64,000 bases of DNA from Mobula birostris (Eukaryota), in NCBI RefSeq assembly GCF_030028105.1, contig NC_092396.1:21597820-21661819 (forward strand), read 5' to 3'. The notes under the pieces are model-generated. The model was not told where the DNA came from and made no database searches. It saw nothing but the letters and a program-made list of their open reading frames with translations. This document shows positions 5,638 through 59,366 of this stretch, piece by piece (the first letter of the stretch is position 1; every line of letters starts with the position of its first letter). The position numbers and the translations under genes are program-made.

Positions 5638-5707
<70 letters not shown>

Positions 5708-28149: not shown

Positions 28150-28483
28150 GGAATGTACACCATCACCTCCCCGGCCGGCCGGGGCGCTTTGGGCTGTGAA
28201 CAGCGCAACAGGAACGTCAGATTTTCCCGTTAACTGGAGGATCGCGGCTCTGGGCCGCTCTCCCCGCTGCGCACTGGGCAAACTCAATGACAACATCCCC
28301 CTCCCATCCTCGACGGCAGCCCCCCGCTTCAGGCCTACCTCAAGCCCGGCGAATGTTACGTCACGCTGATTGACCCGCTGGAAAGCCAATAGGATCACCG
28401 ATTCCGTCGGACCGCTAGTGATAGGGCAAAAGGGAGGGGGTGGGCCTGGCGACGGGCGGCTTCCGGGTTGAAGATGGCGGGCG
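28150..28483. promoter_or_regulatory. CpG-rich bidirectional promoter of INTS11 and CPTP
   Basis: Local CpG/GC enrichment between divergent genes; CRE-like TTACGTCA 28356-28363, CCAAT 28386-28390, ETS-type CTTCCGG 28460-28466, YY1-type AAGATGGCGG 28471-28480 overlapping the CPTP ATG. Confidence 0.85.
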
Positions 28484-28592
28484 TAGAGCCGTTCAGGCTG
28501 AGTGAAGTCCTGGAGTCATTCAGGAGCTGCCTGACCGAGAGCGGGGAGCTGGTGCAGGAACATTACTTGGACGGATGGAAAGGGCTGGTGAA
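28474..28592 (+). CDS. CPTP: Ceramide-1-phosphate transfer protein, coding exon 1
   Basis: MAGVEPFRLSEVLESFRSCLTESGELVQEHYLDGWKGLV(K); Kozak AAGATGG; donor GTGAGT, phase 2 joins exon 2. Confidence 0.93.
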
Positions 28593-29519
28593 GTGAGTGA
28601 TCTAAAAGAATCCTGAAGCCAAAGGATGCTGGGAATCTTAAAATAAGACCTGAAAATGCTGTGGAAAACCTCTGACTTTGACTTGAAATGTCGATCCGCA
28701 AACGTGGACTAACTCACCCGCTGAGGTTTTCCAGCATTTTCCGTTTCTGTCTGAAATAATCCTGTCCTTGGAGCTGCTTGATGGTATCAGGGCGAAGTAC
28801 AGTATGAGTTATTCATCGTGCAGACTATGACAATGAGCGATTATTAGGAGGATGAGAGGGTTATGCCATTTCTGATTGTGTCTGAAGTATTTTGAATTAA
28901 ATTTTTGGATGCGGGGTTCGTTAACAAGATCGGCATTTAATGGCTGGCCTATACTGTCTTTAAAAATGTAGTGGGGAGTCGCTAGTCTCTGTGATGAAGG
29001 GGGTATGTTCACTGTTGTTAGGTAGTGAGTGCAATTTTCAGATTTAGCGACAATGACAGACCGGCGATTATTTCCTCGTCAGACCCGGAGATGCTCTGGA
29101 TCAGGGGGTTCCCAACCTGTGGTCCGCGGACCCCTCGGTTAATGGTAATATAGATGATAATGTTCCCACCAGCCTACTCCCCTCGCCCTCGGTGATGGAA
29201 GTTTCAAGTTTGGAAAGGGTTTGGGTAGCCCGAAGGAGTAGATGTGGTGTACTCTCTGTACTGGAACTAGGGTATGCCGGCAATGGGAGGTGTGAAAGTT
29301 TAGAATGACCAATTAAGGTTAATGACGTGAGCTGTCTCGTTCTAAGGTGGGGTTCAACATTTTGGGTGTTGTTCAGGCTGCATTAACCAAGACTACTCAC
29401 TGTAGGTAGTTAAGAGTACCGAGGTGAATTCCTCCCAGTTGAAAACCCGTGAAGCAACAAATTGTTGTAATGTTTTTAAAATGTAGACATTTAAATGAAG
29501 ATATAAAATAGAGAAGTTT

Positions 29520-32500
29520 TCTCAGTAATATTTGAGTAACATTGCTTCTTTTTACAAATGGGAAAATCTGCAGCTGCTGGAAATCCAAGCAACACACACA
29601 AAATGCTGGAGGAACTCAGCAGGCCAGACAGCGTCTATGGAAAAGAGTATTGTTGGCATTTTGGGCCAAAACCCTTTCTTTGTTTAATTCATTTATTCAG
29701 GGTTATATGTAAAAGTATGTGAATGGCATACGTCATTACGCCACTGTGTCATATGTGCACGCTTCACTAAAAGTAAAAAGCACAGGCGTATATATCCTGC
29801 TGGGCTCCTGCTTTTTTCTTTCAATTAATTTCTGCAGTTACAAAACATAACAGTGGCAACGAGTATGTTTTAAAACGAACTCGTGACAACTACCTACCTG
29901 TAGAAGTGCTGCACATATTTTTTCTTTGCAAAGGGAAAGAGACGTTCAAGTTTTTTTAAAAATGCAGCACTTTTTTTTCCACAAGGGGGGAAGGTAGTCA
30001 AATAAAAGAAAGGCAGAAAACGGACAAAATTCATAGGTTGTTCATAAACAGTGAGTACTGGGTGATAGTGATACTAAGAAATAAAAGCAGAAATGGCTGG
30101 CTACATCAGAAAGATAGATATGTTCAACTGCACAACAGATAACTGCATGTTGTATACTGAGCTAATTGAGCAGTATTTTCAAGCAAATGAAATAGCCAAT
30201 GAAAAGCAAGTGCATTAGGTGGGAAGGCATGCAGTTTACTTAGAAGTTTGACTGCTCCAACTAAACCACCCAAAATGAGCTTTGCTGATGTGAAAGTAAT
30301 ACAGCAACATTTAGACCTGAAACCATTGTTGATTGCAGAAAGTTTTAGGTTTCATAAATGGAATCAAAAAGAAGGGGAGTCCATTTCACCATATGTGGTT
30401 AAATTGAAGAGATTGAACATTGCCAGTTCAGTGATAGGCTTAATGATGCACAGAGAGAGTGCTTAGTTTGTGGAATCTTACAAGAAAACATTCAAAGATG
30501 GTTTCTGACTAAAGCACAACTCACATTTAAAAGAGCAGTTTAAGTGGGTGTATTAATGGAAACAACTGCCAGAGATACAGTTGTGTTGTGGTCAGGAATG
30601 AAAGTGAGTGAACAAAATTGCAACATCTAAACAGAAACCTTCCTGGACAGACAAGTTGTGTTACCATTGTTACCAAGCTCCCATACACAAAACCAATGCA
30701 GATTTAAAGGTGAAATTGCAGAAAATGCAACAAAGTAGAATGCATAGAAAGAGCATGTGTTGGATGGACAAAAATAAATGGACTACACAGGGAAGAGGAA
30801 AAAGTCGAGCTGCAGTTTCAAAAAGAGCCCTGATCTACATGCCATTGATGAAAAATCTGATGATGAGAGTGACACGGGACTGTGTAGCCTTCAAATTTAC
30901 ATTGTGAAAATTAACTACAGACAAGCAATATGGATTTCAGCAGAAGTGAATAGTGCATAAATTTAAATGAAATTGGACACTGGCTCAACTGTTTCAATCA
31001 TTCCACAACATGAGTTTGATCAGCATTTCAAAGATACTGACTGAACTGAAGCCTGCAGATATTCAACTAAGAACCTGTCTAGAGAAAAGGTAACTCCCAT
31101 GAGAATGACGTTCTTAACAGTGAATTACAACCAACAAGCCACATTTGTTTGTATGTGGTTAAAAACAGGAAGCCAGCATTGTTGGGCTGTGATTGGCTGT
31201 GACAACTACAACTTGATTGGAGATCCATCCACTGTTTGCATGCCACATCCTCTGCAATAGTGTCAACTGAAAGCAAATTAAGAAAGGTACTGGATGATGC
31301 CACAGCAGTGTTCAAGGATGTCATTGGAAAACTCAAACATGTCAAGAGTGAAATAGTGTTAAATAAAACTGCCACACCCCAGTTTTACAAAGGTCATCGG
31401 GTTCCTTGTACCAACCAGGATAAAGTAGCCAGTCAGCTAGATTGCATGGAGGCTGAAGGAACTCTTTCCAAGGTTGAGTGGAGTCCATGGGAACTGCGCA
31501 GGTTGACTCTGTGGTTAAGAAGGCATACGGTGTATTGGCCTTCATCAATCATGAGGTTGAGTTTAAGAGCTGAGAGGTAATGTTGCAGCTATATAGGACC
31601 CTGGTCAGACCCCACTTGGAGTACTGTGCTCAGTTCTGGTTGCCTCACTACAGGAAGGACATGGAAACCATAGAAAGGGTGCAGAGGAGATTTACAAGGA
31701 TGTTACCTGGATTGGGGAGTATGCCTTATGAGAATGGGTTGAGTGAACTTGGCCTTTTCTCCTTGGAGTGACAGAGGATGAGAGGTGTACAAGATAATAA
31801 GGGGCATTGATCGTGTGGATAGTCAGAGGCTTCTTGCCAGCGCTGAAATGGCTAGCACGAGAGGGCACAGTTTTAAGGTGCTTGGAAGTAGGTACAGAGG
31901 AGACGTCAGGGGTAAGTTTTTTACGCAGAGAGTAGTGAGTGCGTGGAATGGGCTGGCGGTGGTGGTGGAGGCAGAAATGATAGGGTCTTTTAAGAGACTC
32001 CTAGATGGGTACATGTAGCTTAGTAAAATAGGCTATGGGTAAAGCCTAGGTAGTTCTAAGGTAGGGACATGTTCGGCACAGTTTTGTGGGCCGAAGGGCC
32101 TGTATTGTGCTAAGGTTTTCTATGTTTCTATTCTCCCTAATGCAAATCAGAAGTCTTCTTATTACAGCAGAGGTGATCCAAAGGGAAACCAGAAAAGACC
32201 CCTCACTGTCTCAGATTTACATGGCCACCCAAAATGGCTGGAAAGTGTATCAGATTCTCCAGTTCTCCCATTTTTACCAGCACTGGGATGAACTTAACTT
32301 TGACAGAGGTTGCCTCATGTGGGGATTAAGAGTTGTTCTACCACCAAAGCTGAGAGCTAAAATGTTGAAGAAGAAGCTACATGCCGTCATCTAGGCATGG
32401 TAAAAATGAAAGTACAAGCTCGAAGCTTTCTCTGGTGGCCTGAGGTAGATCAGCAGACTGAGGAACCTGCCATGCACTGTTTGGAATGCAAAAACATCCA

Positions 32501-33908: not shown

Positions 33909-34355
33909 GCTTATATTTTTGTATAATATTTCTCTTCGCGGATCTGCCAAAATTTGTGGTTAAGGAAATAACTTGAGAGGGGACGTTGCTGAAATGTAAG
34001 AATTTCATCAACAAATCTGTCCACAGCAAGCTCCCACAAATAAAACTTATTAATCACTGAGGGATATATCTTTAATAGTTGATTGTCATAACTGTTTTTT
34101 CCTAATAAATTTTCATGATTTGCATAATGTGATTTATTTTCTCTCTAACGTACCAATGGAAACTAAATAAATTTGGAAATTTCTTGTAATAGACTTAAGT
34201 AAATAGTTTATGAATTTGGGAACCATATTCTGCTCAAACTTATTGTGCACTTCAAAATCTTTAATTTCTAATATTAATTTTACTTTTGTATTTCTACTCT
34301 GAATTGTCTTGGTAGGAAAATCCAATTTTAAATTCATTGTTTGATTCTTTTTTAG

Positions 34356-34878
34356 GTTCATGAATAGCCTTGGTGCGGCCTTTTCCTTTATTTCAAAAGA
34401 TGTGGTCACTAAAATCCAAATTCTGGAAAACTACGGATGTAGTGAAAGGGGCCAGGAATATAGAACAATTCAGTCAATGGTGAAGTATGAGGTTGACAAC
34501 AAGCTGGTGGACCTGAAGAAGCGAGGTGACCATTGGGATTCTGGCTGCCGTACTCTGTTGCGACTACACCGTGCCCTCAAGTGGCTGCAGCTCTTTCTGG
34601 AAAAGCTGCGGGTGGCCTCTGATGACAGCAAAACTTCAGTCTTGTGTACAGACGCCTATAATGACTCCCTGGCAAACTATCATCCCTGGATTGTGCGCAA
34701 AGCTGCAGTTCTTGCATTTCATTTACTGCCAAGTCGGGCAGACTTTTTTGAAGTTATGAATATGGGCACAACAGAAAAGGTTGTGGCCACACTCGAGGAA
34801 GCTGTCCCACTCATTTCTAAGACCTATGACATCACACAAGATCTGTATGCTCAACATGACCTGCTTGATCTACCTTAG
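34356..34878 (+). CDS. CPTP: Ceramide-1-phosphate transfer protein, coding exon 2
   Basis: FMNSLGAAFSFISKDVVTKI...SGCRTLLRLHRAL...YHPWIVRKAA...LLDLP*; GLTP-fold motifs; total 213 aa; same neighbour as in mammals. Confidence 0.97.
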
Positions 34879-42680: not shown

Positions 42681-43290
42681 ATGAACCTGGACTTCCTGGC
42701 CTTGAAGGTCATCCTAGCCCAGGTAGCCACGTTGTCCATCTTGCTTGGACATGGGTTACTGTGATGTTATCCATGAACCCCCCATGTTGCAGGGCTACAA
42801 CACTGGGCCTCAGGTTATGTCTGCTGCTGCTGATATGAGGAAGTTCATACCCGTGACAAACAAGATGGGGGAGATGGTACAGCCAGGTGGAATCCCTTTT
42901 TAGAGGACTTGCCACCCGGTCGTAAAGGGGTAGGCTGAGGTGAAGCATAGCTTGAATCCTCCTAGGTAGCTAGTGATCACGTTTCGTGTCGCTGGCGAGA
43001 TATGTAGTGGTCCAGGCCAACCTGGATGAGGATATGTGGACTAAAAAGACGACTGTTCGGTTGCCTTTCTTCTGCCTGGCCTGGTGGATCAACTGTCTGA
43101 TTATTGAGGTGTGTTCAAGGTACCCAGAGAAACCCGGGCTGCCACCTTTTAGGATGGATCTGTTGATATAGAGGTTCTCCATTAAGTAACAAGTTAGCCT
43201 TCTCTCAAGCAGTGGGAAGAATATCTTGCACTCCGTGCTAAAGAGGGAGATTGTCCTAAACTGGGTGATTGTGGAGGAATCTTATTGCTC
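42680..43290 (-). mobile_element. Hero-like (R2-group) non-LTR retrotransposon RT remnant
   Basis: RTISLFSTECKIFF, KGGSPGFSGYLEHT, GGFMDNITVT..QARW, WARMTFKARKSR. Confidence 0.72.
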
Positions 43291-43309
43291 GGGAACAAAG
43301 CATCCTTCA

Positions 43310-43846
43310 GCCATTTCAAATATTATTGGACTCTGGCATGGTGCCAGAGGACTGGAAAATTGCAAATGTCAGTCCACTCTTTAAGAAAAGAGGAAGGCAG
43401 CAGAAAGGAAACTATAGATTTGTTAGGCTGACCTCAGTGGCTGGGAAGGTGTTGGTGTCAATTGCTAAGGATGAGGTTATGGAGTACTTGGTGGCACAGG
43501 GCAAGATAGGATGAAGACAGCATTGTTTCCTTAAGGAAAAATCTAACCTGATGAATCTGTTGGAATCCTTTGAGGAGATTACAGGTAGGATACATAAAGG
43601 GATGTAGTGGATGTTGTATATTTGGACTTTCAGAAGGCCTTTGACAAAGTGCCACACTTAAGGCTGCTTACCACATTAAGAACAGATGGTATTACAGGAA
43701 AGTTACTGGCATGGTTAGGGAATTGGCTGATTGGTATGAGGCAGCAAGTGGGAATGAAAGGATCCTTTTTTGGTTGGCTGCCAATGACTAGATTCTGCAG
43801 GGATCGGTGTTGGGACCGGTTCTTTTTATGCTGTATATCAATGATT
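43310..43846 (+). mobile_element. CR1 LINE RT fragment
   Basis: VPEDWKIANVSPLFKK...GNYR, DVVYLDFQKAFDKVPH. Confidence 0.9.
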
Positions 43847-43848
43847 TG

Positions 43849-44160
43849 TGGGCACGTGGCCAAGTGGTTAAGGCATTGGACTAGCGACCTGAAAGTTGTG
43901 AGTTCAAGCCCCCCCAAGGCAATGTGTTGTGTCTTTGAGCAAGGCACTTAATCACACATTGCTCTGAGACGACACTGACGCCAAGCTGTATGGGTCCTAA
44001 TGCCCTTCCCTTGGACAACATCGGTGTTGTGGAGGGGGAGACTTGCAGCATGGGCAACTGCTGGTCTTCCATACAAACTTGACCAGGCCTGCAACCTGAA
44101 GAGTGAAGACTTTCCAGGCGCAGATCCATGGGCTAATGGATGCCTTTACTTTACTTTAGT
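43849..44160 (+). mobile_element. tRNA-derived SINE
   Basis: A box TGGCCAAGTGG, B box GAGTTCAAGCC, 240-bp body, (CTTTA)n tail. Confidence 0.82.
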
Positions 44161-45349
44161 TCCGTAAACCAGAAATTCTACACAAAGTTAAAATTTCTAT
44201 CAGAATGTCAACATTATTTTGAAATTGGATGCCAGAGCTAAAACAGCAGAAACAAATGTTTGCAAACAGTGTAGATGGCTAGGAATTGAGGTTTTTCATT
44301 TCCCCTCTTCCCTATATGTTTCTCAGTGAAACTTTCAAGCTAACTCTGCTAAACAAGTTCTCTTTTATGGGACAAATGTTACTTGTGAATTTTCACCTCT
44401 GGTCTAAATTCGGTCGGGTTCACGCTGATGCAGAGATGGGCTGCTTCACTTGCTGAAGAGTTGCAAATGGAACTGAACATTGTGTAACTCATCACTTAAC
44501 ATTCCCATGTGGTCTTACAATCCAAGAGAGGAAGGACAAGCACGCAATTTTTAATTGAGAAAGTAGACAAAGAATCGTACTATTATTTTACTAGTTCTAC
44601 TTTGAAACAACCCAAACTTGTCCTGCAGAGCAAGCCTAACAGCCCCCAATTGAGTCCTCCTTCTCGATGATGATGATAAGATATTGGACTAAAAAAGGCA
44701 CACATCTGTGTAGAAAATACATTCACTATTTGGTGTGACTCATGTGAAAGTCTTTTGTGACGAGGAGCTGTTAATTGAAGGGAGAAAGCTTGATGTCTAT
44801 GATCACCCAGTTTCAGTGTGTTGAGAAGCAGAATGCTGTCACTTTAATCACTGGTACTTTCTGCCACCCTGGTTCTTTTGGGCAAGAACTCTTCCATTGA
44901 TCAATGATTCCCAAGAAACTGCAGAAAGAGGGTGTCTGGGATCATAGAGCACTGTCCATCTGGCCAGCTTTAGTGTAGGGTACACACTGAACCAAGATTC
45001 TCAATTGATTTTAAAAAAACATTTATTTTATCACATAAAGGAAACATCAGCAAATCGGAATCTATTTTGTGATTCCAAAATTTGTACAATTATTTCCTAC
45101 AGCCATCAGCTGAATGCCTTCAGTCTTACTTCCTTGGGTTAGGAAATCGAGAAATATATCCTGGTAGTGTAGCAGTTAGCACAATGCTATTGCTGCTTGG
45201 GCATTCCAGAGTTTGGAGCCAATTCCGGTGCCACCTGTAAGGAGTTTGTCTGTTCTCCCCGTGATGCCGTGTGCTTCTTCCGAATGCTCCAGTTTCCTCT
45301 CACATCCAAAGACTAAGTTAAACTAACTTAAACTACATTTGGCAGTTTA

Positions 45350-47480
45350 GCCTAATAAGTTTCAACTGATTTGGCAGGGGGATGGGAACCAGAGTGATAG
45401 GGGTGTTAATTTACAAGCAGCGGTAGTGTATAGTGAGACTGTGAGGAAGGACAGACAGATCATAGGGAAAAATTGCAGTCAGTGGGATGGGTTGCAGTGT
45501 AAAAGGGGACAAAATCGAGAAGGGTGGCAAATGCAGGACTGAAAGGTATTGTATTTGAATGCATGTGGTGTACAGAATAAAACTGATGATCTTGTACCTC
45601 ATTTAGAGATTGGCAGGTGTGACTGAGTAGTGACTGAAGGATGATTTTAGTTGGGAGATTAACATCTAAGGATACACTTTGCATTGAAAGGACAAGTGGT
45701 AGGTGGAGGAGAAGGGGTGGCTCTGCTGGTAAAAATGAAATCAATTCCTTAGAAAGGGGTGACAAAGGATTGGAAAATGTAGAATCCTTGTGGGTAGAGT
45801 TAAGAAACTGCAAGGATGGGAAGATCCTGCTGGGGGTTACGTACAGGCCTCCAAACAGTAGCCAAGTTGTGGGTTACAAATTACAGTGGGAGATAGAAAA
45901 AAGCATGCCAACAAGGCAATGTTATATTAGTCATGGGGATTTCAATATGCAGATAGATTGGTGAAATCAAGTTGATGCTGGATCCCAAGAGAAAATTTGT
46001 GGAATGCCTCTGCGATAGCTTTTTGGAGCAGCTTGTGGTTGATCCCACTAGGGGGATCAGCAATTCTGGATTGGGTGTTGAGTAAAGGACTGGATATGAT
46101 TAGGGACCTAAGATACAGGAACCTGTAGGAAACAGTGATCATAGTGTGTTAGACTTCACCCTGAAGTTTGAGAAGGAGAAGTTAAAGTCAGATGTATCAG
46201 TGTTATAGTGGAGTAACGGGAATTGCAGAGGCATAAGAGAGGAGCTGGCCAAAGTTGACTGGAAGGGGACACTAGCAGGGATGACAGCAGAGCAGCAATG
46301 GCTGGGGTTTCTGAGAGCAATTCAGAAAGCACAGGATAGATACATCCTAAAGAAGAGGAAGTATTCTAAAGGCAGGATGATGTAACTGTGGCTGATAAGG
46401 GAAGTCAAAACCAACATAAAAGCATATAACAGCAAACATTTGTGGGAAGTTAGAGCATCGGAAAATTTTAAAAAACCAACAGAAGGCAACTAAAAAAAAT
46501 AAGGGGAGAAAAGGTGAAATATGAAGGTAAGCTAACCAATAATATCAAAAATTATGCCAAAAGTTTTTCAGATTATATAAAGAGTAAAAAAGAGATGAGG
46601 GTAGATATTGGACTGCTGGAAAATGTTGCTGGAGAGATAGACAAGGAAATGGTGGATGAAATGTGTAAGTATTTTGCTTCAGTCTTCACTGTGGAAGACA
46701 CTAGTAGTATGTCAGAAGTTTGAGCGTGTCAGGGGGCAGAAGTGAGTGCAGTTGGTATTACTAGGGAGATGGTGCTAGGGAAACTGAAAAGTCTGAAGGT
46801 AAATAAGTCACCTGGTCCTGATAGACTATACTCCAGGATTCAGAAAGAAGTAGCTGAAGAGATTGTGGAGGCATTAGTAAAGACTTTTCAAGAATCAATA
46901 GTTTATGGAATGGTTCCAGAGGATTGGAAAATTGCAAGTTTCACTCTACTCTTCAAGAAGGGACAGAGGCAGTAGAAAGAGTATTTAACCTGACCTTGGT
47001 GGTTGGGAAGATATTGGAGTCAATTGTTAAGGATGTGGCTTTGGGGTACTTGGAGGCACAGTACAAAATAGGCTATAGTTTCCTTAAGGGAATATCTTGC
47101 CTAACAATCTGTTAGAATTCTTTGAAGAAATAGCAAGCCAGAATAGAGAAAGGAGAATTGGTGGATGTTGTGTACTTGGATTTTCTGCAGGTTTTGATAA
47201 GGAGCTGCACATGAGGCTGCTAAACAAGATTAAGAGTCCAGGGAAATACAGGAATGATAGTAGTATGGATAGAGCACTGGCTGATTGGCAGGAGGCAAAG
47301 AGTGGGGAAAAAGAAAGTTTCTTTGAATTGGCTGCTGGTGACTAGTGGGTTCCACAGGGGTCTGTGTTGGGACTACTCCTTTGAACATTGAGGGGGAAAT
47401 GGATTAGTCAGGATGAAATGGCGGAACGGACTCGATGGGCCGGATGGCCTAATTGTTCTCCTATGTCTAATGGTCTTAAT
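45350..47480 (+). mobile_element. CR1 LINE, decayed APE and RT regions with 3' end
   Basis: VESLWVELRN, GVTYRPPN, GDFN..IDW, KSPGPD, VPEDWKIA; CR1 tail near 47400-47480. Confidence 0.9.
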
Positions 47481-47589: not shown

Positions 47590-48180
47590 CTAGAAGACAT
47601 AGGTTTTGCTCCTGCTATTTGAACGATGTTATTAAACTGGGAAGAGTGCAGAAAAGATTAACAAGGACGTTTCGAAGACACTGGGGACTGAATTATGAGG
47701 AGACATTGGACAGGCTAAGATGGTGGAGACGAAGATGTGATCTTATAGATATTTATAAAATAATGAGGGGGAAAAAATAGGGTGAATGCATTCAGTCGTT
47801 TTTTTTGGGGTTAGGGAATCAAGAACTAGAGGGCATTGGTTTAAGTTAAGAGGAGAAAGATTTAATATGAACTTGTTGGGCAACTTTTTTTTTAACACAA
47901 AGGTTGATCAGTATGGGGAATGAGCTGCCAGAGGAAATAGTTGCAATCATAACTTTTAAAGCATAGTTCGACACTACTACTACGTTGACTCAGGCCAAGG
48001 GGGCCAGCGTCGATGACGGACTCGCCACTTCTTCCTCTCCCTCATAGTTGGACAAGTAAGCGGATAGCAAAAGGTTATAAAGTTATTGGACAATTGTGAC
48101 CAGATTCAACGGGTATCTTGGTCGATATGGACCAGTTGGAGTGAAGGGCCTGTTTCTGTGTTGTATGACTTTGAACCAAT
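47590..48180 (+). mobile_element. CR1 LINE 3' fragment
   Basis: RVQKRLTR and RTRGH motifs; AAGGGCCTGTTTCTGTG tail. Confidence 0.8.
47974..48042 (-). mobile_element. 69-bp RTE-like 3' end nested in CR1
   Basis: TSD CATAGTT(C/G)GACA at 47962-47973 and 48043-48054; (GTA)n tail; MRERKKWR end motif. Confidence 0.7.
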
Positions 48181-48209
48181 TAATACACATCAGAAGCCAC
48201 ATGTAAATA

Positions 48210-48560
48210 GAAAACAGCGTTCGGAAATCCGAGCGTCGTGAAATAAATTCAATAACATAAATCATCAATAAAGATTAATGTGGACTCACCGCGTAATGTA
48301 CACCAGTATTACAAATCTAAAAGAAAACGGCTGCCACGCCTTTCTGTGAAAGAAAAATTACCCAGAATCCAGATCGAGCCAGAAAGCCCTCTATCTCTGC
48401 CGGTTTGGGGCGAGAACACTGCGCATGTTCGGAAGTAGAAGCGGAGCGGTTGTCAGGGGTGAAATCGTTAGGAAGCGGACAGAAGGCTGGCGGGGTTGAT
48501 GCAGACAAAGGCAGGTAAAAGCCTTCGGTGTCAGGGCTCGGTTGTATGCAAACTGAGCGT
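48210..48560. promoter_or_regulatory. CpG-rich promoter of the zinc-finger gene, possibly bidirectional
   Basis: CpG cluster; NRF1-like TGCGCATG at 48420, ETS CGGAAGT at 48430; plus-strand donor CAG|GTAAAA at 48515 and minus-strand donor GCG|GTGAGT at 48289. Confidence 0.7.
48499..48514 (+). CDS. Probable first coding exon of the C2H2 zinc-finger gene (MQTKA-G)
   Basis: ATG CAG ACA AAG GCA G|GT; phase 1 matches the acceptor at 52812, giving a 310-aa product. Could instead be 5'UTR with start at ATG 52817. Confidence 0.45.
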
Positions 48561-50444
48561 GCAGTTTACTACAGAGGAAACAGTGACATATTTTCAAAGA
48601 CACTTTATTTTAGTTTGACATTAAAAATCAGTAGGTGCATTTTTATACTATTGGCTGAAGGGAAGCGGGCTGCTGGGCCCTGGCAGTCCCCGACGTTGTT
48701 TATATCCCGCTGCAGCCTTTCCCCGTCTACTAGTTGCTGTAAATGCGTGTGCGTTGTCCTCGCCGTGCCGGGTGATTTTGTGTTGTACACAGAAGAGATT
48801 CTGCATGTCTCTACCAGACCCACTCTACGCATTGGTGTCGAGAGCCAAAGAGGCAGTTTGCTAATTTCATTCAGGGAGAGGTGCTATTTCTCTCTCTCTT
48901 TTTCGCTTAGGATTGAGCTGGCCAGCTGCGTTTTACTGTTGCAGTTCGCCGACTCTGGGATTAAGTAAGGCTAAAGTCCAGCTTGCCATTTTTGATTTGG
49001 TGACAAATATTTCAAATGCCTAAAGTTGGGATGATGCTTGGGTGTGATGTCACCCACTCCACCCTCTCTCAGTGCTCCCTTTCTGTGATCAAGCTGCTCT
49101 CTAACTTCGCAGCTATAACCTGCCAGCATGTGCTCCTTCTTACCTCCCTCCCACCCCTATCCATTATATTATATTATTCTGGCTTCTTTCCCTTTGTTTT
49201 CCAGTCCGGTCTTGGCTTGAAACGTGGAGTGCTTCAAAGTAAATTTATTATCAAAGTACAAACGTACATATGTGTCACAATATACATCCCCGAGGCTTAT
49301 TTTCTTACAGACATACTTACTAAATCCCCTCCATAGATGATTTCTGGCCTGCTGAGTTCCTCCAGCATTTTGTGGGTGTGTGTGTGTATGTTGCTCTGCA
49401 CTTTCAGCATCTGCAGAATCTCCTGTGTTTATGAGACCTTGCAGCTAAGTTTTTTGGAGAAGGTAAATGAAAAATGTGGGAGAAAAGGGAACAACAAAAA
49501 AAAAATACAAAGTTGGGACTGTAAATTTACCAAAACCTATAATGGCTAGAATTGGAAATGAAAGTGTGCTGAAAATACTCAGCAGGCCAGACATCTGTGG
49601 AGAGGGAAATATTGGCAGTGCTGTCTCAAACTGGAAAAACAGTTTATCTGAGTATCAGTTTCTATGAGTGTAGCTGAAACACCATTGTTAAAGATTGGGC
49701 TTCATTGGTATTGAGAGGGAGAGATAGAGACTAAAAAACAGGTTAGTGGGATGAAGAACGGAAGTGACACGAAACTGGAAGGTGCTGATCTTGTGGGCTT
49801 CATGAAGGTATTCTACAAAACTTGGTCTATGATCTTCCCCTATTGGATTATAAGACCATATGGGGGATGTTAATTGATGATTACTCAGTTTTCAGTTCCA
49901 TTTGCAACTCCTCAGCGTGAAGCAGCCCATTGCTGCATCAGCATGACCCACACAGAACTGAGACGAAGTGAAATGTTGTAAGTAACACTCGTCCCGCAAG
50001 AGTGGCAGACAGTAAACATGTAATCATCTTTGTCACGTATATCCAGTCATCACAAACCTCACTCGGACCAGCCACGCGCGCGCACGCACACACAAAGAGT
50101 CACAAGAGCACAGAGGAGGCAGCGTATGCTGCGGTGATTGACTCTCCATCAAATATCCCAAAGACTTTCGCCACTTGCAAGGCTGATCTAGATAGTTCAC
50201 AATTGCCTGGATGAATGCAGCTGTGACACTGCTCTCTGAGCGTAATGCCATTCAGTTAAAACAGGTCTGCTTCGTTAATGTTCCATCTGCTGCAGTTTGT
50301 GCCACCAACGAATGCATTGCAGTCACGCAGGCTATTTCAAACGCTTCTACCGCCAAGAGCAACGGCAGCAGGTGCATGGTCATGCACCTCCAACCGCAGG
50401 TTGCCCTCCGAATCACTCACTGTCCTCACTACAAAATTGATAAG

Positions 50445-50850
50445 CAGGTGCTGGATATCCGAAGCAACACACGTACAGGGCACTGGAGGAAGCTCAGCAG
50501 GCCAGGCGGCATCTATGGAAACAAATAAACAGTCGACACCCTTCATCAGGAATGTGGAGGGAAAAGATGAGAAGTCAGAGCAAGAAGGTGGTGGGGCGGG
50601 GGGAGGAAACTCAGCAGGTCAGGCAGCATCTGTGAAAATGAATAAATAATCAATGTTTCAGGCCAAGACCCTTCTTCAGGACTGGAAAGGAAGGGGGAAG
50701 AAGCCAGAATAAAAAGGTGGGGAGAGGGAAAGGAAGATAGCTGGCAGGTGATAGGTGAAGCCAGGCAGGTGGGAAAGGTAAAGGCTGGATAAGGAGGAAT
50801 CTGATAGGAGAGGAGGGCGTACCATAGGAGAAGGGGAAGGAGAAAATGTG
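50445..50850 (-). mobile_element. Two tandem Penelope-like 3' termini
   Basis: CTCAGCAGG(C/T)CAGGC(G/A)GCATCT unit repeated near 50490 and 50608, each followed by a hammerhead-derived motif. Confidence 0.8.
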
Positions 50851-51429: not shown

Positions 51430-52471
51430 GCCACACACATTAAGGTTGCTGGTGAACGCAGCAGGCCAGGCAGCATCTCTAGGAAGAGGTACAGTTGACG
51501 TTTCAGGCCGAGACCCTTTATCAGGACTAACTAAAAGAAGAGCTAGTAAGAGATTTGAAAGTGGGAGGGGGAGGGGAGATCCAAAATGATAGGAGAAAAC
51601 AGGAGGGGGAGAGATGGAGCCAAGAGCTGGACAGGTGATTGGCAAAAGGGATACGAGAGGATCATGGGACAGGAGGCCCAGGGAGAAGGAAAAGGGGGAG
51701 GGGGGAAAAACCCAGAGGATGGGCAAGGGGTATAGTGAGAGGGACAGAGGGAGAAAAAGGAGAGAGAGGAAAAGAATGTGTGTATATAAATAAATAACAG
51801 ATGGGGTACGAGGGGGGGTGGGGCATTAGCAGAAGTTTGAGAAGTCAATGTTCATGCCATCAGTTTGGAGGCTACCCAGACAGAATATAAAGTGTTGTTC
51901 CTCCAACCTGAGTGTGGCTTCATCTTTACAGTAGAGGACGTCGTGGATAGACATGTCAGAATGGGAATGGGATGTGGAATTAAAATGTGTGGCCACTGGG
52001 AGATCCTGCTTTCTCTGGCGGACAGAGCGTAGGTGTTCAGCGAAATGATCTCCCAGTCTGCGTGGGGTCTCGCGAATATATAGAAGGCCACATCGGGAGC
52101 ACCGGACGCAGTATATCACCCCAGCCGACTCACAGGTGAAGTGTAGCCTCACCTGGAAGGACTGTCTGGGGCTCTGAATGGTGGTAAGGGAAGAAGTGTA
52201 AGGGCATGTGTAGCACTTGTTCCACTTACAAGGATAAGTGCCAGGAGGGAGATCAGTGGGGAGGGATGGGGGGAACGAATGGACAAGGGAGTCGCGTAGG
52301 GAGTGATCCCTGCGGAAAGCAGAGGTGGGGGGGAGGGAAAGATGTGCTTAGTGGTGGGATCCTGTTGAGGTGGCGGAAGTTACGGAGAATAATATGTTGG
52401 ACCCGGAGGCTGGTGGGGTGGTAGGTGAGGACCAGGGGAACCCTATTCCTAGTGGGGTGACAGGAGGGTGG
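51430..52471 (-). mobile_element. Penelope-like (Neptune-type) element, GIY-YIG region and 3' end
   Basis: GVIYCVRCSRCGLLYI.ET; TSD ATCTGTATATCCAT at 51416-51429 and 52472-52485. Confidence 0.93.
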
Positions 52472-52811
52472 ATCTGTATATCCATTCTCACTGAGCACAG
52501 GTTGCAATTTGTGCAGGATGGTTCTCTGTGCATGTTGTCTGTGTTCCACTATCTTTGAACTGGATTGTTTCTTTTGTTGGTACTGCAGGATAACGAGCAT
52601 GAATGGCAAGTGATAAAGCAAAAGTTTCCTCTGTACTGGCTACCTGTGCCTCTTTGTACGTCCACAGAGTCCCCCAAAAAGGAGGGGGTTTGTGAAATGC
52701 TGTTTTCTGGTGCACTGATCTCCCATTGATAGCTGGGCTTGGGACACTGAGTTTGCCTACCTTGGAGTGTGGGTTGTGATGTGTAATCAATGCCAACGTG
52801 CTGTGTTTCAG

Positions 52812-53728
52812 GCCTGATGGAGAAGTTGCAGCAGTCACAAACTGACCCCAGTGCTGAGGACAAGAGTGCCGCGCCCAGCCACGACCCAAGGCGCTTCACG
52901 TGCGGGGAGTGCGGCAAGAGCTTCAAGCAGCACTGTGACCTGAAGCGGCACGGCAGGGTGCACAGCGGTGAGCGGCCGTACTGGTGCCCAGCCTGCGGCA
53001 AGCGCTTCAGCACCTCCTACAACTTGCTGATCCACCAGCTGATCCACAGCGGTGAGAAGCAGTACAAGTGCCGGGCTTGCGGCCGGGAGTTCGTGCAGCA
53101 GCACCATCTCGTCACCCACCAGCGCACCCACACGGGCGAGAAGCCCTACCCGTGCCCGGTGTGCGGCAAAGCCTTCCGCCAGTCCTCCACCATGATGGTG
53201 CACCGGCGAATCCATGGCGAGGAGCGGCCCTACCGCTGCCCTGACTGTGCCAAGAGCTTCAAGACCTCGTCCAACCTGTCCAAGCATCGGCGCATCCACA
53301 CGGGCGAGCGGCGCTTCGTCTGCGAGGTGTGCTCCCGCCGCTTTCTGCACTCCCACCACCTGACCACGCACCGCCGCACCCACGTGGGCGAGCAGCCCGC
53401 CTCCTGCCCTCTCTGCGGCCAGCACTTCGGTGACCCGGAGCAGCTCCTGGCTCACCGCCGGGCGCACGCCGGCGAGCCTCCCTACAGCTGCGAGACCTGT
53501 GGCAAAGGCTTTGGCCAGCGCTCCACGCTGGTGCGCCACCGCCGCACGCATACCGGCGAGAAGCCTTACGCCTGCCCCATCTGCGCCAAGACGTTCCGGC
53601 AGACTTCCACCATGCAGGTGCACTATCGCACGCACTCCGAGGATCGGCCGTACCGCTGCCTGCAGTGTGGCAAGGGCTTCAAGAGTGCCTCCAATCTGAT
53701 CGGGCATCATCGTGTACACAGAAGGTAG
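52812..53728 (+). CDS. C2H2 zinc-finger protein, 10 tandem fingers, main exon
   Basis: Ten CxxC-x12-HxxxH repeats with TGEKP-like linkers; acceptor TGTGTTTCAG ends at 52811; in-frame ATG 52817; high GC3; TAG stop. Confidence 0.93.
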
Positions 53729-54039
53729 AGCATCGCCTGACTTGTAATGGACTCGTTTTCATCAGGCAGGACAGTGCGATTGTAGAGACAGTGACTCACT
53801 GGCTGAGGACTTTCTGAGTGACTGTAATGACATGGGTGGAGCATTTTAATTTAGTGGATGCCCTCAAATCATTGAGCTTGGGGTATTAACAGCCAGCTAA
53901 AGCCAAAGTTTTATAACAAGTGTGAGATGGCACAGTCTTGGGATGTTTCTCTATACGGGCTAGTGCACAACTTTCAAACGCACATTAACTTTTTGAATTG
54001 ATTGAAAGTCTTTGAATGTCTCATCTTTAACAACAGGAT

Positions 54040-55748
54040 TGGATGTCCAATCCTTATATACTTCCATTCCCCATCAAGAAGGCCTCAAAGCCCTCCGCCA
54101 CTTTCTGGACAATAGACCTCACCAGTTCCCCACCACCACGACCCTCCTCTGGTTGGCAGAATTGGTACTCACACTTAATAACTTCTCTTTTAGCTCTTCC
54201 CACTTTCTTCAGACCAAGGGTGTAGCTATGGGCACTTGCATGGGCCCCAGCTATGCCTGCCTCTTCATTGGTTATGTGGAACAGTCTATGCTCCAAACCT
54301 ATACTAGTACTGCTCCCCAACTTTTCCTTCGCTACATTGACGACTACATTGGTGCTGCTTCCTGCACCCATGCTGAGCTTGTCAATTTCATCAACTTTGC
54401 TTCTAACTTTCACCCAGCCCTCAAATTCACTTGGTCCATCTCGGACACTTCTCTCCCCTTTCTCGATCTCTTGGTCTCCATCTCTGGAGACAGACTGTCC
54501 ACTGACATCTTCTATAAGGCCACTGACTCTCAAAACTACCTCGACTATACCTCTTCCCACCCTGCCACATGCAAAGATGCTATTCCCTATTCCCAGTTCC
54601 TCCGTCTCCGCCACATCTGCTCCCAGGATGAGGCTTTCCATTCCAGGACATCTCAAATGTCCTCTTTCTTTAAGGGTCATGATTTCCCTTCTACCGTCAT
54701 CAATGACGCCCTCACCCACATCTCCTCCATTTCCCTCACTTCGGCCCTCACCCCATCCCCCCGCCACCACAACAGGGACAGAGTTCCCCTTGTTCTCACC
54801 TACCACCCTACCAGCCTCCGGATCCAGCACGTTATCCTCCGCAATTTCCACCACCTTCAACAGGACCCTACCACTAAGCACATCTTTCCCTCTCCACCCC
54901 TCTCCGCTTTCCGCAGGGATCATTCCCTCCGCAACTCCCTGGTCCACACATCCCTCCCCACGGATCTCCCACCCGGCACTTATCCCTGTAAGCGTAAGTG
55001 CTACACCTGTCCCTACAGCTCCTCTCTTGCTGCCATTCAGGGCCCCAAACAGTCCTTCCAAGTGAGGCAACACTTCACTTGTGAGTCTGTTGGGGTCATC
55101 TATTGCATCCGGTGCTCCCGGTGCGGCCTCCTCTACATCGGTGAAACCCGACGCAGATTGGGGGACTGCTTCGTCGAGCACCTCTGCTCCGTCCGCCACA
55201 ACAGACAGGATCTCCCAGTAGCCACCCACTTCAACTCTGCTTCCCACTCCCATTCAGATATGTCCATACATGGCCTCCTCTACTGCCATGATGAGGCCAG
55301 ACTCAGGTTGGAGGAGCAACACCTCATATACTGTCTGGGTAGTCTCCAACCCCTTGGTATGAACATAGAATTCTCCAACTTCCGGTAATTCCCTCCCCCT
55401 CCCTTCCCCTATCCCTATTTCACTCTGCCCCCTCCTCCAGCTGCCTATCACCTTCCTCATGGTTCCACCTCCTTCTACTACCCATTGTGTTTTCCCCTAT
55501 TCCTCCTTCACCCTTCCTGACTATCACCTCCCTGCTTCCCCTCCCCCACCCCTTTATCTTTCCCCTTACTGGTTTTTCACCTGGAACCTACCAGCCTTCT
55601 CCTTCCCACCCTCACCCCACCTTCCTTATAGAGCCTCTGCCCCTTCCCTCTTCAGTCCTGATGAAGGGTCTCGGCCCGAAACGTTGACTGTTCGTTTCCA
55701 CGGATGCTGCCCGACCTGCTGAGTTCCTCCAGCGTGTTGTGCGTGTTG
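54040..55748 (+). mobile_element. Young 5'-truncated Penelope-like (Neptune-type) retroelement: RT + Cys linker + GIY-YIG endonuclease
   Basis: Open frame to 55388: LDVQSLYTSIP, QTKGVAMG, LRYIDD, CKRKCYTC, VIYCIRCSRCGLLYIGET; TSD CTTTAACAACAGGAT (54025-54039) / CTTTAAGAACAGTGAT (55749-55764). Confidence 0.95.
55653..55690 (+). ncRNA. Minimal type I hammerhead ribozyme in the PLE 3' terminus
   Basis: Stem I CAGUC/GACUG; core CUGAUGA; extra A; stem II GGGU-CUCG-GCCC; GAAA; palindromic ACGU helix III; GUU cleavage triplet. Confidence 0.8.
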
Positions 55749-56194
55749 CTTTAAGAACAGTGATGTACCCAGAAACTTTAAAACTTGACTTGGTTTTCTG
55801 TAGCACTCTTCGGTTCCCTTTCAGGACACCCCAAAGTACCTTGCAATGAAAATTTTTTTAATGCAGTCGCTTGCAAAACAATATGTGGGCACCTAGCTCC
55901 CTCAAACAGTGATGTGTTAACGAACAGATAATGTGTTTTACTGGTGGTAACTGAGAGATAAATATTTGTTTCTTTGCAAACTGGAATTGGTCTGTGGAAC
56001 ATTCCATGATGCAGACGGAGGCTGGGAAATTCCAAAGCAGAGACTGAGAATGAGAATGGAGGGAAATGTATGTTGATGTTTTTAAAAGTGTGGAGCAATA
56101 CTTCATACGCCACATGCAATGGATTTGATTGGCTTAGATACTACCACTTTATTTTCAGTTTGACAATTTCATTTGATAGAACATTAGGTTTATA

Positions 56195-56465
56195 TGCCAC
56201 GAGGGGGCATAGTTTTAAGGTGCTTGGAAGTAGGTACAAGGGGGAATGTCAGACGTAGGTTTTCCACACACAGAGTGGTGGGTGTGTGGAATGCACTGTC
56301 AGCGAAGGTGGTAGGGATGGATACAATAGGGTCTTTTATTGAGCTTAGAAAATAGAGGGCTATGCGGTAAGGAAATTCTAGGCAGTTTCTAGAGTAGGTT
56401 ACATGGTCAGTACAACATCGTGGGCTGAAGGGCCTGTAATGTGCTGTAGGTTTCTATGTCTATGT
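56195..56465 (+). mobile_element. CR1 LINE 3' fragment
   Basis: TRGHSFKVLGSRY; same family as 31492-32130. Confidence 0.88.
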
Positions 56466-57481
56466 AGATTATTTATTTAAAATTGCTTCACATTTTAAGC
56501 TTGTAAGCACAAATTTTTTGAGAAGGTGAAATCTGCAGATGATGGAAATCTGAATGTACTGTGCATTTGGTGTACATACTGTGCTCTCTTCTACACTGGA
56601 GAAACCAAATGAAGATGGAAAGATGAGCAGAACACCTCTATCCAGGATGCCACCAACTTTGTGATTTCAGCCACTCTCCGTCACCCTCTATTGCTTCAAT
56701 TCCAATGTCATCATTTTCCTCCATTGCTCTGATGATGTTTAACGTAAGCTCCACGAACAAGACTCACTTTTATTTGGACACATTGATGCTTTTGGGCCTG
56801 AACATTGAATTTAACAATTTCAATTTACCAACCATTCCCTTTATCTGCTCCATAGATGTGGCTATACGTTTATTTCAATTTGGTGATCTCTTTATAATCT
56901 GACTTCATGTTTTTCCTTTTAATTGTCACTTTGACGAATTAGGTTTGCACCTCATCACAGACTCACCCTCTTCTCTTGACACTCACTCACTCTGCATCTT
57001 AATACAGACTTGTTTTCTCTCCTTCATTCCAGTCGTTTTTCACCCAAAATGTTGACTCTGTTTCTCTCTCCACAGATGTTTTCAACATTTTTTTTGGTTT
57101 TTATCTAAGATCTACTGTTGCTGTAAAGTATTCCCACTCAGACTAGCCGATTGTTTAGCTGCATGATAGCAAGATTTAGCTTGGAGATCAAGGTACATTC
57201 ATATATTCATACTTGGGAATCAAACATGAAGATAATCCAAGATATGTGAATCAATTTAATGTATTATGAAGTATAAAATGGCCTTTTTAAAAAAGCAAGT
57301 TTTCTCATTAAAAACTTCCTTCTTTGAGCCCCATCCTGGTCCCCGAATGTTGAGTAATTAGTGTTGTTGAGTTAGAGTTTGACTCTCTTAGCATTTATCT
57401 TGAGAAGTAGGCGCTCTTTAATAAACAAGTGTTAAGACTCTCTACTGTCAGTACAGGTTTAGCAACCTCCCTGCTATAAGG

Positions 57482-59366
57482 AACTCAGCAGGCCAGGCAG
57501 CCTCTATGGAAAAGAGTAGTCAACGTTTCACGCCAAGACCCTTCTTCAGGACTGGAAAAAAAGATGAGGAGTCAGAGTGAGAGGCTGGGCGGAAGGGAGG
57601 AAGAAACACAAGGTGATAGGTGAAACCAGAAATGGGGGAAAGGGGTGAAGTAAAGAGCTGGGAAGTTGATTGGTGAAAGAGATACAGGGCTATAGAAGGG
57701 GAAATCCAATGGGAGAGGGCAGAAGACCATGGAAGAAAGAAAAGGGGGAGAAACACCAGAGGAGGCGATAGGCAGTATGGAGATAAGGTGAGAGAAGGAA
57801 ATGGGAATAGGGAATGGTGAAGGGGTTGACCATTACTGGGAGTTCGAGAAATCAATGTTCATGCCATCAGGTTGGAGGCTACCCAGATGGAATATAAAGT
57901 ATTGCTGCTTTAACCTGAGTGTGGCCTCACTGCGACAGTAGAGGAAGCCGTGGTCTGACATAGGGGAATGGGAAGTGGAATTAAAATGGGTTGCCACTTG
58001 AAGATCCCACTTTTTCTGTTGGACAGAGTGTAGGTGCTCGGTGACGTAGTCTCCCAATCTGCATCAGGTCTCGCCAATATAAGGGAGGCCACACCGGGAG
58101 CACTGGATACAGTAGGTGACCCCAGTAGACTCACAGGTGAAGTGTCGCCTCATTTGGAAGGACTATTTGGGGCCCTGAATAGTGGTGAGGGAGGAGGTGT
58201 AGAGGCAGGTGTAGCACTTGTTCCGCTTGCAAGGATCATTTCGGGAGGGAGATCATTGGGGAGGCATGAATCCACAAGGGAGTTGTGTAGGGAGCGATCC
58301 CTGTGGAAAGCAGAAAGTGATGTGGAGGGAAAGATGTGCTTGGCGGTGGGACCCTGTTGGAGGTGGTGGAAGTTACAGGGAATATGTACTGAACACGGAG
58401 ACTGGTGGGTGGTAGGTGAGGACCAGAGGAAACATCCCTGGTGGGGTGGTGATAGGATCCCACCCCCCACTTTCTGCAGGGATGGCTCCCTACACGACTG
58501 CCTTGTCCATTTGTACCTCCCCACCGATCTCCCTCCGGCACTTATTTTTGCAAACAGAAGAAGTGCTACACCTCCTCCCTCACTACCGTTCAGGCCCCGA
58601 AACAGTCCTTCCAGGTGTGGCGACACTTCACCTGTGAGTCTACTGGGGTCATTGACTGTATCCGGCGCTCCCAGTGTGGCCTCCTGTATATCGGGGAGAT
58701 CCGACAGATTGGGAGACCGCTTTGTTGAGCACCTACGCTCTGTCCACCTGAAAAAGTGTGATCTCCTTCCTAGTAGCCACCCATTGTAATTCCACTTCCC
58801 ATTTCCATTCCAACATGCCAATCCATGGTCTCCTGTACTGTCGCGATGAGGCCACACTCAGGTTGGAGGAGCAACACGTTATGTTCCTTCTGGGCAGCCA
58901 CCAACCTGATGGCATGAACATCGATTTCTCAAACTTCCAGTACTGCTCCCCCACTTTCTCCTTCACCATTCCCCATTCCCATTTCCCTCTCTTACCTCAT
59001 CTCCTTCCCTGCCCATCACCTCCCTCTGGTGCTCCTCCCCCTTTTCTTTCTTCCATGGCCTTCTGTCCTCTCCTATCAGATTCCCTTTCCTCCAGCCCTA
59101 TCTCTCCTTCACCAATCAACTGACCAGCTCTTTTCTTCACCCCTCCCCACTTCCCGGTTTCATCTATCACCTTGTGTTTCTTCCTGCCCTCCCTCTACTT
59201 TCTTACTGACTCCTCATCTTTTTCTCCAGTCCTGATGAAGGGTCTCAGCACAAAACTTCAACTGTTTACTCTTTCAATAGATGCTGCCTGGCCTGCTGTG
59301 TTGCTCCAGCATTTTGTGTGTGTTGCTTGGATTTCCAGCATCTGCAGACTTTCTCTTGTTTGTAAT
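57482..59366. mobile_element. Palindromic Penelope-like insertion (minus arm to about 58450, plus arm from about 58455)
   Basis: Both arms carry GIY-YIG remnant and 3' UTR; TSD TCCCT(G/C)CTATAAGG at 57468-57481 and 59367-59380. Confidence 0.92.

What the first reader, a model, noticed from the sequence alone, without database searches (positions are those of the whole stretch)
55653..55690. Intact minimal hammerhead ribozyme 1.9 kb downstream of, and co-oriented with, the zinc-finger gene
Seen: CAGTC-CTGATGA-A-GGGTCTCGGCCC-GAAA-CG-TT-GACTG gives a perfect 5-bp stem I, both conserved core boxes, a 4-bp stem II and a self-complementary ACGU in place of a stable helix III; predicted cleavage after 55685. 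Established: Penelope-like elements carry minimal type I hammerheads thought to cleave as dimers, and an extra A between A9 and stem II is tolerated in a viroid hammerhead. Inference: this copy may still self-cleave, and because it is sense to the ZNF gene it could cut long 3'UTR or read-through transcripts and aid termination.
Basis: partly seen in the sequence, partly recalled or inferred. Interest (0 to 1): 0.7.

Follow-up and report, generated by a model that had tools for sequence, protein, structure and literature searches.

The report
Penelope hammerhead in a host 3'UTR
This is a real but ordinary ribozyme-shaped motif at the end of a broken Penelope-type jumping gene, one of at least 47,000 such motifs in this genome; it likely lies inside the untranslated tail of a zinc-finger gene's messenger RNA but is predicted not to cut it.

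Summary
The motif is real and described correctly. It is not free-standing: it is the minimal hammerhead in the 3' pseudo-LTR of a 5'-truncated Penelope-like element (54040-55752, RT plus GIY-YIG frame). At least 47,655 intact-core copies exist genome-wide, and 14 of 67 sampled siblings are equally intact, so intactness needs no selection. The element's frame decays neutrally (14 synonymous, 29 non-synonymous changes). The motif probably lies inside, not downstream of, the zinc-finger mRNA: no canonical poly(A) hexamer occurs before 57307, and probable-RNA contigs cover unique sequence on both sides, one ending 12 nt after AATAAA at 57420 (RNA status is a guess). Cutting or termination is unlikely: such motifs fail as monomers in published tests, no intact co-oriented partner lies in the probable transcript, the site is GUU, and flanks are predicted to misfold it. 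The scan has noted this family many times on other DNA of this genome. Verdict: new member of a known kind, a passenger; low interest.

The parts
55653..55690 (+). Minimal type I hammerhead motif (stem I 5 bp, core CUGAUGA, extra A, stem II 4 bp, GAA, palindromic ACGU, U17); predicted cut after 55685 at a GUU triplet
   Evidence: sequence, numbering, chance test
55678..55698 (+). Competing 6-bp hairpin that would sequester the GAAAC catalytic box; its 3' arm is typical of this subfamily
   Evidence: predicted pair probability 0.5-0.95 in 56-153-nt contexts, 0.13 or less in longer ones; subfamily sequence
54040..55752 (+). 5'-truncated Penelope-like element (Neptune/Nematis-type linker), ending at the inner of two 3' end points (no 30-40-nt tail)
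   Evidence: siblings align from 54040 to about 55752 at 90-92.5% and extend up to about 1.4 kb further 5'; tail present in 38 of 90 siblings
54006..55388 (+). Stop-free 460-codon frame: C-terminal RT (motif A, MG..MGP, YIDD), CX3CxxC linker, GIY-YIG-type endonuclease with CxxC; N-terminus missing; conserved Arg read as Cys
   Evidence: (RVT_1 E 1.5e-6, just under the curated cut-off)
52812..53728 (+). Last coding exon of a C2H2 zinc-finger gene (acceptor AG at 52810-52811 inferred; stop TAG 53726-53728)
53729..57437 (+). Probable long 3'UTR of the zinc-finger gene that contains the whole element and the hammerhead
   Evidence: no AATAAA/ATTAAA before 57307; probable-RNA contigs on unique flanks; continuity across the repeat inferred, not shown
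57420..57425 (+). AATAAA, probable poly(A) signal
   Evidence: one contig (X2) ends at 57437, while X1's runs past 57470
51454..52471 (-). Antisense Penelope fragments of another subfamily (ORF end and pLTR with broken core) in the probable intron; 79-83% like the sense copy
57479..58449 (-). Antisense Penelope fragment with a near-intact core (57522-57549), just past the probable poly(A) site; opposite strand, so not a cis partner
59223..59328 (+). Nearest co-oriented pLTR copy downstream; catalytic box broken (G12 lost, ACGU altered)

Best explanation
The 38-mer is the minimal hammerhead motif of the 3' terminal repeat of a dead, 5'-truncated Penelope-like retrotransposon copy, and it is likely carried as an uncut passenger in the 3'UTR of the zinc-finger mRNA. 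Shown: the motif, the surrounding element, the copy number, and neutral decay of this copy and of sibling cores. Inferred: the family's active elements kept the motif under selection for their own RNA processing, as a two-molecule (dimer) or protein-assisted ribozyme. The copy was inserted by target-primed reverse transcription starting in the tail about 67 nt 3' of the cut site, which itself requires an RNA uncut at this site. It landed between the ZNF stop codon and its poly(A) signal. Alone in the transcript, with no helix III, a GUU site and competing folds, it is predicted to cleave negligibly, so the mRNA would end normally near 57437.
For: Element context and motifs. 47,655 intact-core copies, control 0; 16 pLTR-like pieces in this window alone, 2 with the core. 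14 of 67 siblings that reach the motif's 5' edge are intact, and CpG decay hits core positions (G8 9 of 67 A, G12 12 of 67 A, C15.2 14 of 67 T, G16.2 13 of 67 A). This copy: 51 private substitutions in 1713 columns (2.98%), 14 synonymous and 29 non-synonymous against an expected synonymous share of 0.23-0.28. Monomer inactive and dimers weak (PMC4209133); no cleavage without the element's protein and no RNA-seq ends at the site in Anolis (PMC11167929); 1 of 9 Xenopus dimers cleaved (bioRxiv 2026.07.22.740005). Hammerhead-like fold 0.18 for the bare 38-mer, 0.02 with 56 nt, under 0.001 with 91 nt or more. Unique sequence up- and downstream of the site is covered in 4 of 4 probable-RNA runs, with like contig depths (27.5/30.4, 11.7/14.6, 8.9/9.2, 3.6/3.2; weak).
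Against: All catalytic positions and both stems are intact, and GUU is listed among active NUH sites (PMC3138052 passage). Family pLTR sequence is very deep in the same runs (bin depth up to 90,069), so trans partners probably exist. ViennaRNA ignores tertiary contacts, proteins and co-transcriptional folding. The insertion is shared with two other organism labels, so it has been retained for some time.
Confidence: 0.82

Rival explanations
1. Conditional decay switch: the 3'UTR hammerhead is silent normally but cuts when Penelope RNA (trans dimer through the ACGU palindrome and swapped stem I strands) or Penelope protein is abundant, removing the poly(A) tail from the ZNF mRNA and from any other mRNA with a sense copy.
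For: Intact core inside a probable mRNA. The dimer geometry can be drawn. Protein-assisted cleavage is shown for the Anolis element. Family RNA appears abundant. Earlier unreviewed notes see insertion joints near the cut site in this genome.
Against: Predicted duplex energies are small (ACGU pair -1.7, stem I in trans -4.7 kcal/mol), and the predicted minimum-energy dimer is an extended inactive duplex. This copy lacks the downstream sequence that the Anolis protein needs (first 172 nt of the ORF; by analogy). Only 3 of 90 siblings begin within 2 nt of the cut site, among 23 that begin inside the motif's 3' part. No sign of selection on the copy.
Confidence: 0.08
2. One reading: the ribozyme cuts constitutively and helps end ZNF transcription (co-transcriptional cleavage or termination aid).
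For: Sense orientation 1925 nt after the stop, no canonical hexamer upstream of it. Natural 3'UTR hammerheads lower reporter output (Clec2d, PMC2950038 passage).
Against: The site lies upstream of the first canonical poly(A) signals (57307, 57420), so a cut would destroy the mRNA rather than finish it. Contigs cover the downstream 1.7 kb. No cis partner: the co-oriented remnant near 49200 lacks the CUGANGA box and the one at 59223 has a broken GAAA box. The Clec2 ribozymes are full-size hammerheads with large loop insertions, not helix-III-less ones.
Confidence: 0.04
3. The motif is outside the ZNF transcript altogether: the mRNA ends before 54040 at a non-canonical signal, and the contigs on both sides come from DNA, read-through noise or a separate transcript.
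For: RNA status of the runs is only a guess and no piece spans the repeat.
Against: In X1, X2 and X5 one contig reaches 50-53 nt into the element from the unique 5' flank. If colinear, the X1 and X2 contigs begin exactly at the acceptor AG (52810). The contig sets total 115-159 million letters for a 4,015-million-base genome. None of the 11 hexamer variants scanned occurs between 53701 and 55844.
Confidence: 0.06

Closest known systems
Minimal hammerheads (min-HHR) in pLTRs of metazoan Penelope-like elements (Cervera and De la Pena 2014, PMC4209133; text parts 1-2 of 4 read, figures and supplements not seen)
   Same: Type I topology, 5-bp helix I, unpaired base between 9 and 10.1, G10.1-C11.1, palindromic 15.2-16.2, location in a pLTR, mostly single motifs in truncated copies.
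   Different: Helix II is 4 bp (7-8 bp in the Schistosoma families). H17 is U in this subfamily (94 of 100 listed) whereas the wider family here has C (89 of 100 listed). Copy number (at least 47,655) exceeds the 4,000-9,000 reported for coelacanth and Xenopus, by a different search method.
EN+ Penelope-like elements, Neptune/Nematis type (Craig et al. 2021, PMC8557442; passages read)
   Same: RT then CX2-5CxxC linker then GIY-YIG with two cysteines between the motifs; optional 30-40-nt tail; inverted 5'-truncated partner copies among siblings.
   Different: This copy is 5'-truncated, has a single pLTR, and reads Cys at the conserved endonuclease Arg. The clade was not tested by a tree.
PAc Poseidon hammerhead of Anolis (Frangieh et al. 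2024, PMC11167929; text parts 1-2 of 4 read)
   Same: Hammerhead lies upstream of two alternative 3' end points (tail); copies derive from RNA uncut at that site.
   Different: Poseidon lacks the linker zinc finger. Whether the ORF here begins in stem II was not determined, since no copy with a 5' pLTR was found among 7 long loci.
Clec2 3'UTR hammerheads of rodents (PMC2950038; passages read)
   Same: Hammerhead in a host 3'UTR, sense to the mRNA.
   Different: Clec2 ribozymes are reported conserved across mammals and active in a reporter. This one is a high-copy transposon passenger with no helix III and no sign of selection.

Membership tests
PLE minimal type I hammerhead | Core boxes C3-U4-G5-A6-N7-G8-A9 and G12-A13-A14-A15.1 ... 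U16.1-H17 | tested here: met
   sequence
PLE minimal type I hammerhead | Helix I 4-5 bp open-ended; helix II closed by G10.1-C11.1; unpaired base between 9 and 10.1 | tested here: met
   definition
PLE minimal type I hammerhead | Palindromic 15.2-16.2 without stable helix III | tested here: met
   ACGU at 55681-55684
PLE minimal type I hammerhead | Located in the pLTR of a PLE | tested here: met
   265 nt after the RT-EN stop, 62 nt before the element's 3' end
PLE minimal type I hammerhead | Self-cleavage as dimer or with protein | not testable with these tools
   needs an in vitro assay or raw reads; only contigs were available
Rfam hammerhead families | Score at or above gathering threshold | tested here: not met
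   no hit; lowers only the claim of being a canonical Rfam hammerhead
EN+ Penelope-like element | RT followed by C-terminal GIY-YIG endonuclease with cysteines between GIY and YIG | tested here: met
   motifs; RVT_1 E 1.5e-6 (28.5 bits, cut-off 29.6), no Pfam GIY-YIG hit
EN+ Penelope-like element | Optional 30-40-nt 3' tail; partial tandem or inverted copies | tested here: met
   38 of 90 siblings carry the tail; inverted pieces in L113, L115-L117, L122
EN+ Penelope-like element | pLTR-ORF-pLTR arrangement in full-length copies | tested here: inconclusive
   none of 7 long loci showed a co-oriented 5' pLTR
Neptune/Nematis clades | CX2-5CxxC zinc finger in the RT-EN linker | tested here: met
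   CKRKCYTC at residue 328; definition
Neptune/Nematis clades | RT phylogeny | not tested
   no reference sequences at hand
Non-LTR retrozyme | Non-coding tandem units each with a hammerhead | tested here: not met
   single motif after a coding frame; no tandem array
Domesticated 3'UTR hammerhead (Clec2-like) | Conservation beyond neutral expectation and monomer-competent fold | tested here: inconclusive
   no helix III; intactness matches the 14 of 67 background; orthologous motif sequences could not be read from collapsed contigs

The most novel reading that the evidence does not exclude
Sense Penelope insertions in 3'UTRs, this one included, give host mRNAs a latent cut site that fires only when Penelope RNA or protein is abundant (trans dimer or protein-assisted folding), coupling transposon activity to decay of specific host mRNAs.
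Probability: 0.06. Interest if true: 0.7.

Novelty: new member of a known kind. Interest (0 to 1): 0.17.

Why it matters
As it stands, little: it is one more copy of a motif class described in 2014, in a genome that holds tens of thousands. Its modest use is as a test bed. Whether metazoan PLE minimal hammerheads cleave in vivo is still open (PMC4209133; PMC11167929 found no RNA-seq ends at the site), and an intact copy with unique flanks inside a probable mRNA lets one look for locus-specific cut ends with long reads. A side point: a whole subfamily spread with U17 (a slower GUU site) and a hairpin predicted to hide the catalytic box, which fits the view that fast cleavage is not needed for transposition.

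Tried and rejected
(1) Idea that U17 is CpG decay private to this copy: rejected; among the first 100 of 174 subfamily matches 94 read TG, 3 CG, 2 GG, 1 TC and 0 CA, and 63 of 67 siblings have T there. (2) Idea that the open 460-codon frame is selected: rejected; the synonymous share 14 of 43 is near neutral expectation, the chance of no stop in 43 changes is about 0.3 (hand arithmetic from the 2.4-2.9% stop share), and siblings have stop-free stretches up to 657 codons. (3) Pile-up of sibling 5' ends at the cut site: inconclusive; 3 of 90 start at 55686-55687, 10 of 90 at 55645-55655. The sample was 90 of the 100 listed, of 225 matches; dropped were 2 likely segmental duplicates on C6 and the last 8 rows. 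A few gapped copies were scored as broken by the ungapped rule, so 14 of 67 is slightly low. (4) Rfam: nothing. PDB by sequence: nothing at E<=1. (5) Search for a full-length copy with a 5' pLTR in 7 loci: none. (6) No RNA holder listed on record. X20 has no cover beyond about 56600 and X5 none beyond 57266; neither is taken as evidence. (7) Exact-match counts of 42, 79, 174 and 225 are lower bounds and are not used as copy numbers. (8) The flanks printed for L021-L050 were a script error; one search replaces them. (10) Four paper searches listed no study of PLE hammerheads in host 3'UTRs of cartilaginous fish; the library is partial, and Supplementary Table 4 of bioRxiv 2026.07.22.740005 (3'UTR copies in Xenopus) was not seen and may bear on novelty.

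Full report
Observation. In standard numbering: stem I 5' strand 55653-57, C3-A9 55658-64, an extra A at 55665, stem II 55666-77, G12-A14 55678-80, A15.1-C-G-U16.1 55681-84, U17 55685, stem I 3' strand 55686-90. The core pattern occurs twice in the window against 0.03 expected from shuffles. Rfam does not recognise it, and its folding energy is unremarkable (z -1.42). It lies 1925 nt after the stop codon of a C2H2 zinc-finger exon on the same strand.

What it is part of. The motif is near the 3' end of a retrotransposon copy. A stop-free frame at 54006-55388 holds the C-terminal half of an RT (D..SLYT.I, MG..MGP, YIDD; RVT_1 E 1.5e-6, just under cut-off), a CX3CxxC linker, and a GIY-YIG-type endonuclease with CxxC between the motifs. 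By Craig et al. 2021 (PMC8557442, passages) this layout marks endonuclease-bearing Penelope-like elements of the Neptune/Nematis type; I did not build a tree. Siblings align from 54040 to about 55752 at 90-92.5% and extend up to about 1.4 kb further 5', so this copy is 5'-truncated. It ends at the inner of two 3' end points; 38 of 90 siblings carry about 35 more bases, the 'tail' that Frangieh et al. 2024 (PMC11167929, parts 1-2 of 4 read) traced to two reverse-transcription start sites. Because reverse transcription starts 3' of the hammerhead, any copy holding the whole motif was likely made from RNA uncut at that site (inference).

How common. A degenerate pattern that requires both core boxes, the palindrome and the inner stem I pairs finds 47,655 places in the 4,015-Mb genome, control 0, about one per 84 kb. 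This window holds 16 pLTR-like pieces, 2 with the core. To ask whether 'intact' is special I sampled siblings by an anchor 3' of the motif (90 of 100 listed, of 225 matches): 67 reach the motif's 5' edge and 14 are intact, while CpG decay strikes catalytic positions freely. The window copy differs from the sibling majority only at the free N7. Over the whole element it has 2.98% private substitutions, 14 synonymous and 29 non-synonymous, near the neutral share of 0.23-0.28, and the conserved endonuclease arginine codon reads Cys where 30 of 40 aligned siblings have C at the first base. This is an unselected dead copy whose 38 bases happen to have escaped damage. Copies of other subfamilies whose upstream sequence is only 68-72% like this one carry the same 38-mer at 37-38 of 38 positions (ascertained by exact search). 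This suggests that the motif was selected in active elements, for the element's benefit.

The cut site. I first took U17 for CpG decay of GUC. That was wrong for this copy: 94 of the first 100 subfamily matches read TG and none CA. The wider family is mostly C17 (89 of 100 listed, hand count). So one subfamily fixed a GUU site and still spread. GUU is listed as cleavable, with GUC and GUA fastest (PMC3138052 passages). The same subfamily has a 3' flank that can pair with GAAACG. ViennaRNA gives that hairpin 0.5-0.95 probability in 56-153-nt contexts, and gives the hammerhead-like fold 0.18 for the bare 38-mer, 0.02 at 56 nt and under 0.001 beyond. These are secondary-structure predictions only.

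Is it transcribed with the zinc-finger gene? None of 11 poly(A) hexamer variants occurs between 53701 and 55844; the first ATTAAA is at 57307 and the first AATAAA at 57420. Four runs held as contigs were laid on 53731-57470. Three are guessed to be RNA, one is of unknown kind, and none is on record as RNA. Unique sequence is covered on both sides of the element in 4 of 4 runs, with like depths (27.5/30.4, 11.7/14.6, 8.9/9.2, 3.6/3.2); the tool warns that contig depth cannot rank parts of a gene, so this is weak. In X1 and X2 the upstream contig, if colinear, begins at 52810, the acceptor AG of the zinc-finger exon, and X2's last contig ends at 57437, 12 nt after AATAAA, though X1's runs on. 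No listed piece spans the repeat and no silent stretch was laid as control. The simplest reading is a 3.7-kb 3'UTR containing the whole element.

Mechanism. In Cervera and De la Pena 2014 (PMC4209133, parts 1-2 of 4 read) a single minimal motif showed no cleavage and dimers little. The Anolis motif needed the element's protein, and no RNA-seq reads ended at its site. One of nine Xenopus dimers cleaved (bioRxiv 2026.07.22.740005: abstract, Results part 1 and passages read; supplements not seen). A dimer needs a second co-oriented motif. Between the CpG-rich probable promoter near 48.4 kb (inferred) and 57437 the only other plus-strand remnant, near 49200, lacks the CUGANGA box (read by eye), and the next one downstream (59223) has a broken GAAA box. 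A trans partner is conceivable, since family sequence is very deep in these runs, but predicted duplex energies are small and the lowest-energy dimer is an inactive extended duplex. The site is also upstream of the poly(A) signal, so a cut would destroy the mRNA rather than terminate it. I therefore commit to an uncut passenger (0.82), with a conditional trans- or protein-triggered cut (0.08), not being in the transcript at all (0.06) and constitutive cutting or termination (0.04) as rivals.

Comparison and novelty. It is a member of the PLE minimal hammerheads on every sequence feature tested; activity is untested. It is not a retrozyme (no tandem units, coding frame upstream) and not like the conserved, reporter-active Clec2 3'UTR hammerheads (PMC2950038 passages). 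Retrozyme copies in Xenopus 3'UTRs are already reported. The viroid precedent for the extra A is known to me only through the citation in PMC4209133. Earlier unreviewed notes of this scan describe the same family repeatedly on other DNA of this genome, several with claims about joints at the cut site or starts at the motif's front edge, and similar passenger verdicts in other genomes; nothing was noted near this place. My small sample shows starts near the front edge (10 of 90) and cannot confirm enrichment at the cut site (3 of 90). One note calls the genome likely a ray; I did not test this. Verdict: real motif, known kind, probably inert here; interest 0.17.

Noticed in passing
window 55678-55698; G000 subfamily copies (L051-L110): A whole subfamily fixed U17 (GUU) and a 3' flank predicted to pair with the GAAAC box, yet spread to at least hundreds of copies, while the wider family keeps GUC.
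   Followed up: partly
window 51454-52471 (-) and 50462-50784 (-) versus 54753-55752 (+): Antisense Penelope fragments in the probable intron are 72-83% like the sense 3'UTR copy and could form long double-stranded RNA in the pre-mRNA (predicted duplexes about -135 kcal/mol over the pLTR), which would also block the ribozyme fold and could attract A-to-I editing.
   Followed up: partly
window 34345-34878 (+): Exon of a glycolipid-transfer-protein family gene (Pfam GLTP E 8e-41); CpG island at 28001-29000 may be its promoter. The name CPTP/GLTPD1 is my recalled guess.
   Followed up: no
window 48001-49000: CpG-rich stretch (o/e 0.84) with a possible donor site near 48515; probable promoter and first exon of the zinc-finger gene.
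   Followed up: no
window 16955-17494 (-): Tc1/mariner transposase fragment (Pfam HTH_SB E 9e-16).
   Followed up: no
window 18061-18217: Head-to-head pair of pLTR pieces (inverted structure typical of Penelope insertions); similar pairs at L049/L050 and in several siblings.
   Followed up: no
window 56198-56461: A second high-copy repeat inside the probable 3'UTR (very high contig depth); not identified.
   Followed up: no
G000 C6:206.04-206.20 Mb: Three evenly repeated pairs of subfamily matches, probably a segmental tandem duplication.
   Followed up: no
window 31079-32394 and 42970-45964: Frames resembling fragments of other retrotransposon proteins (likeness judged by eye, not searched).
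   Followed up: no
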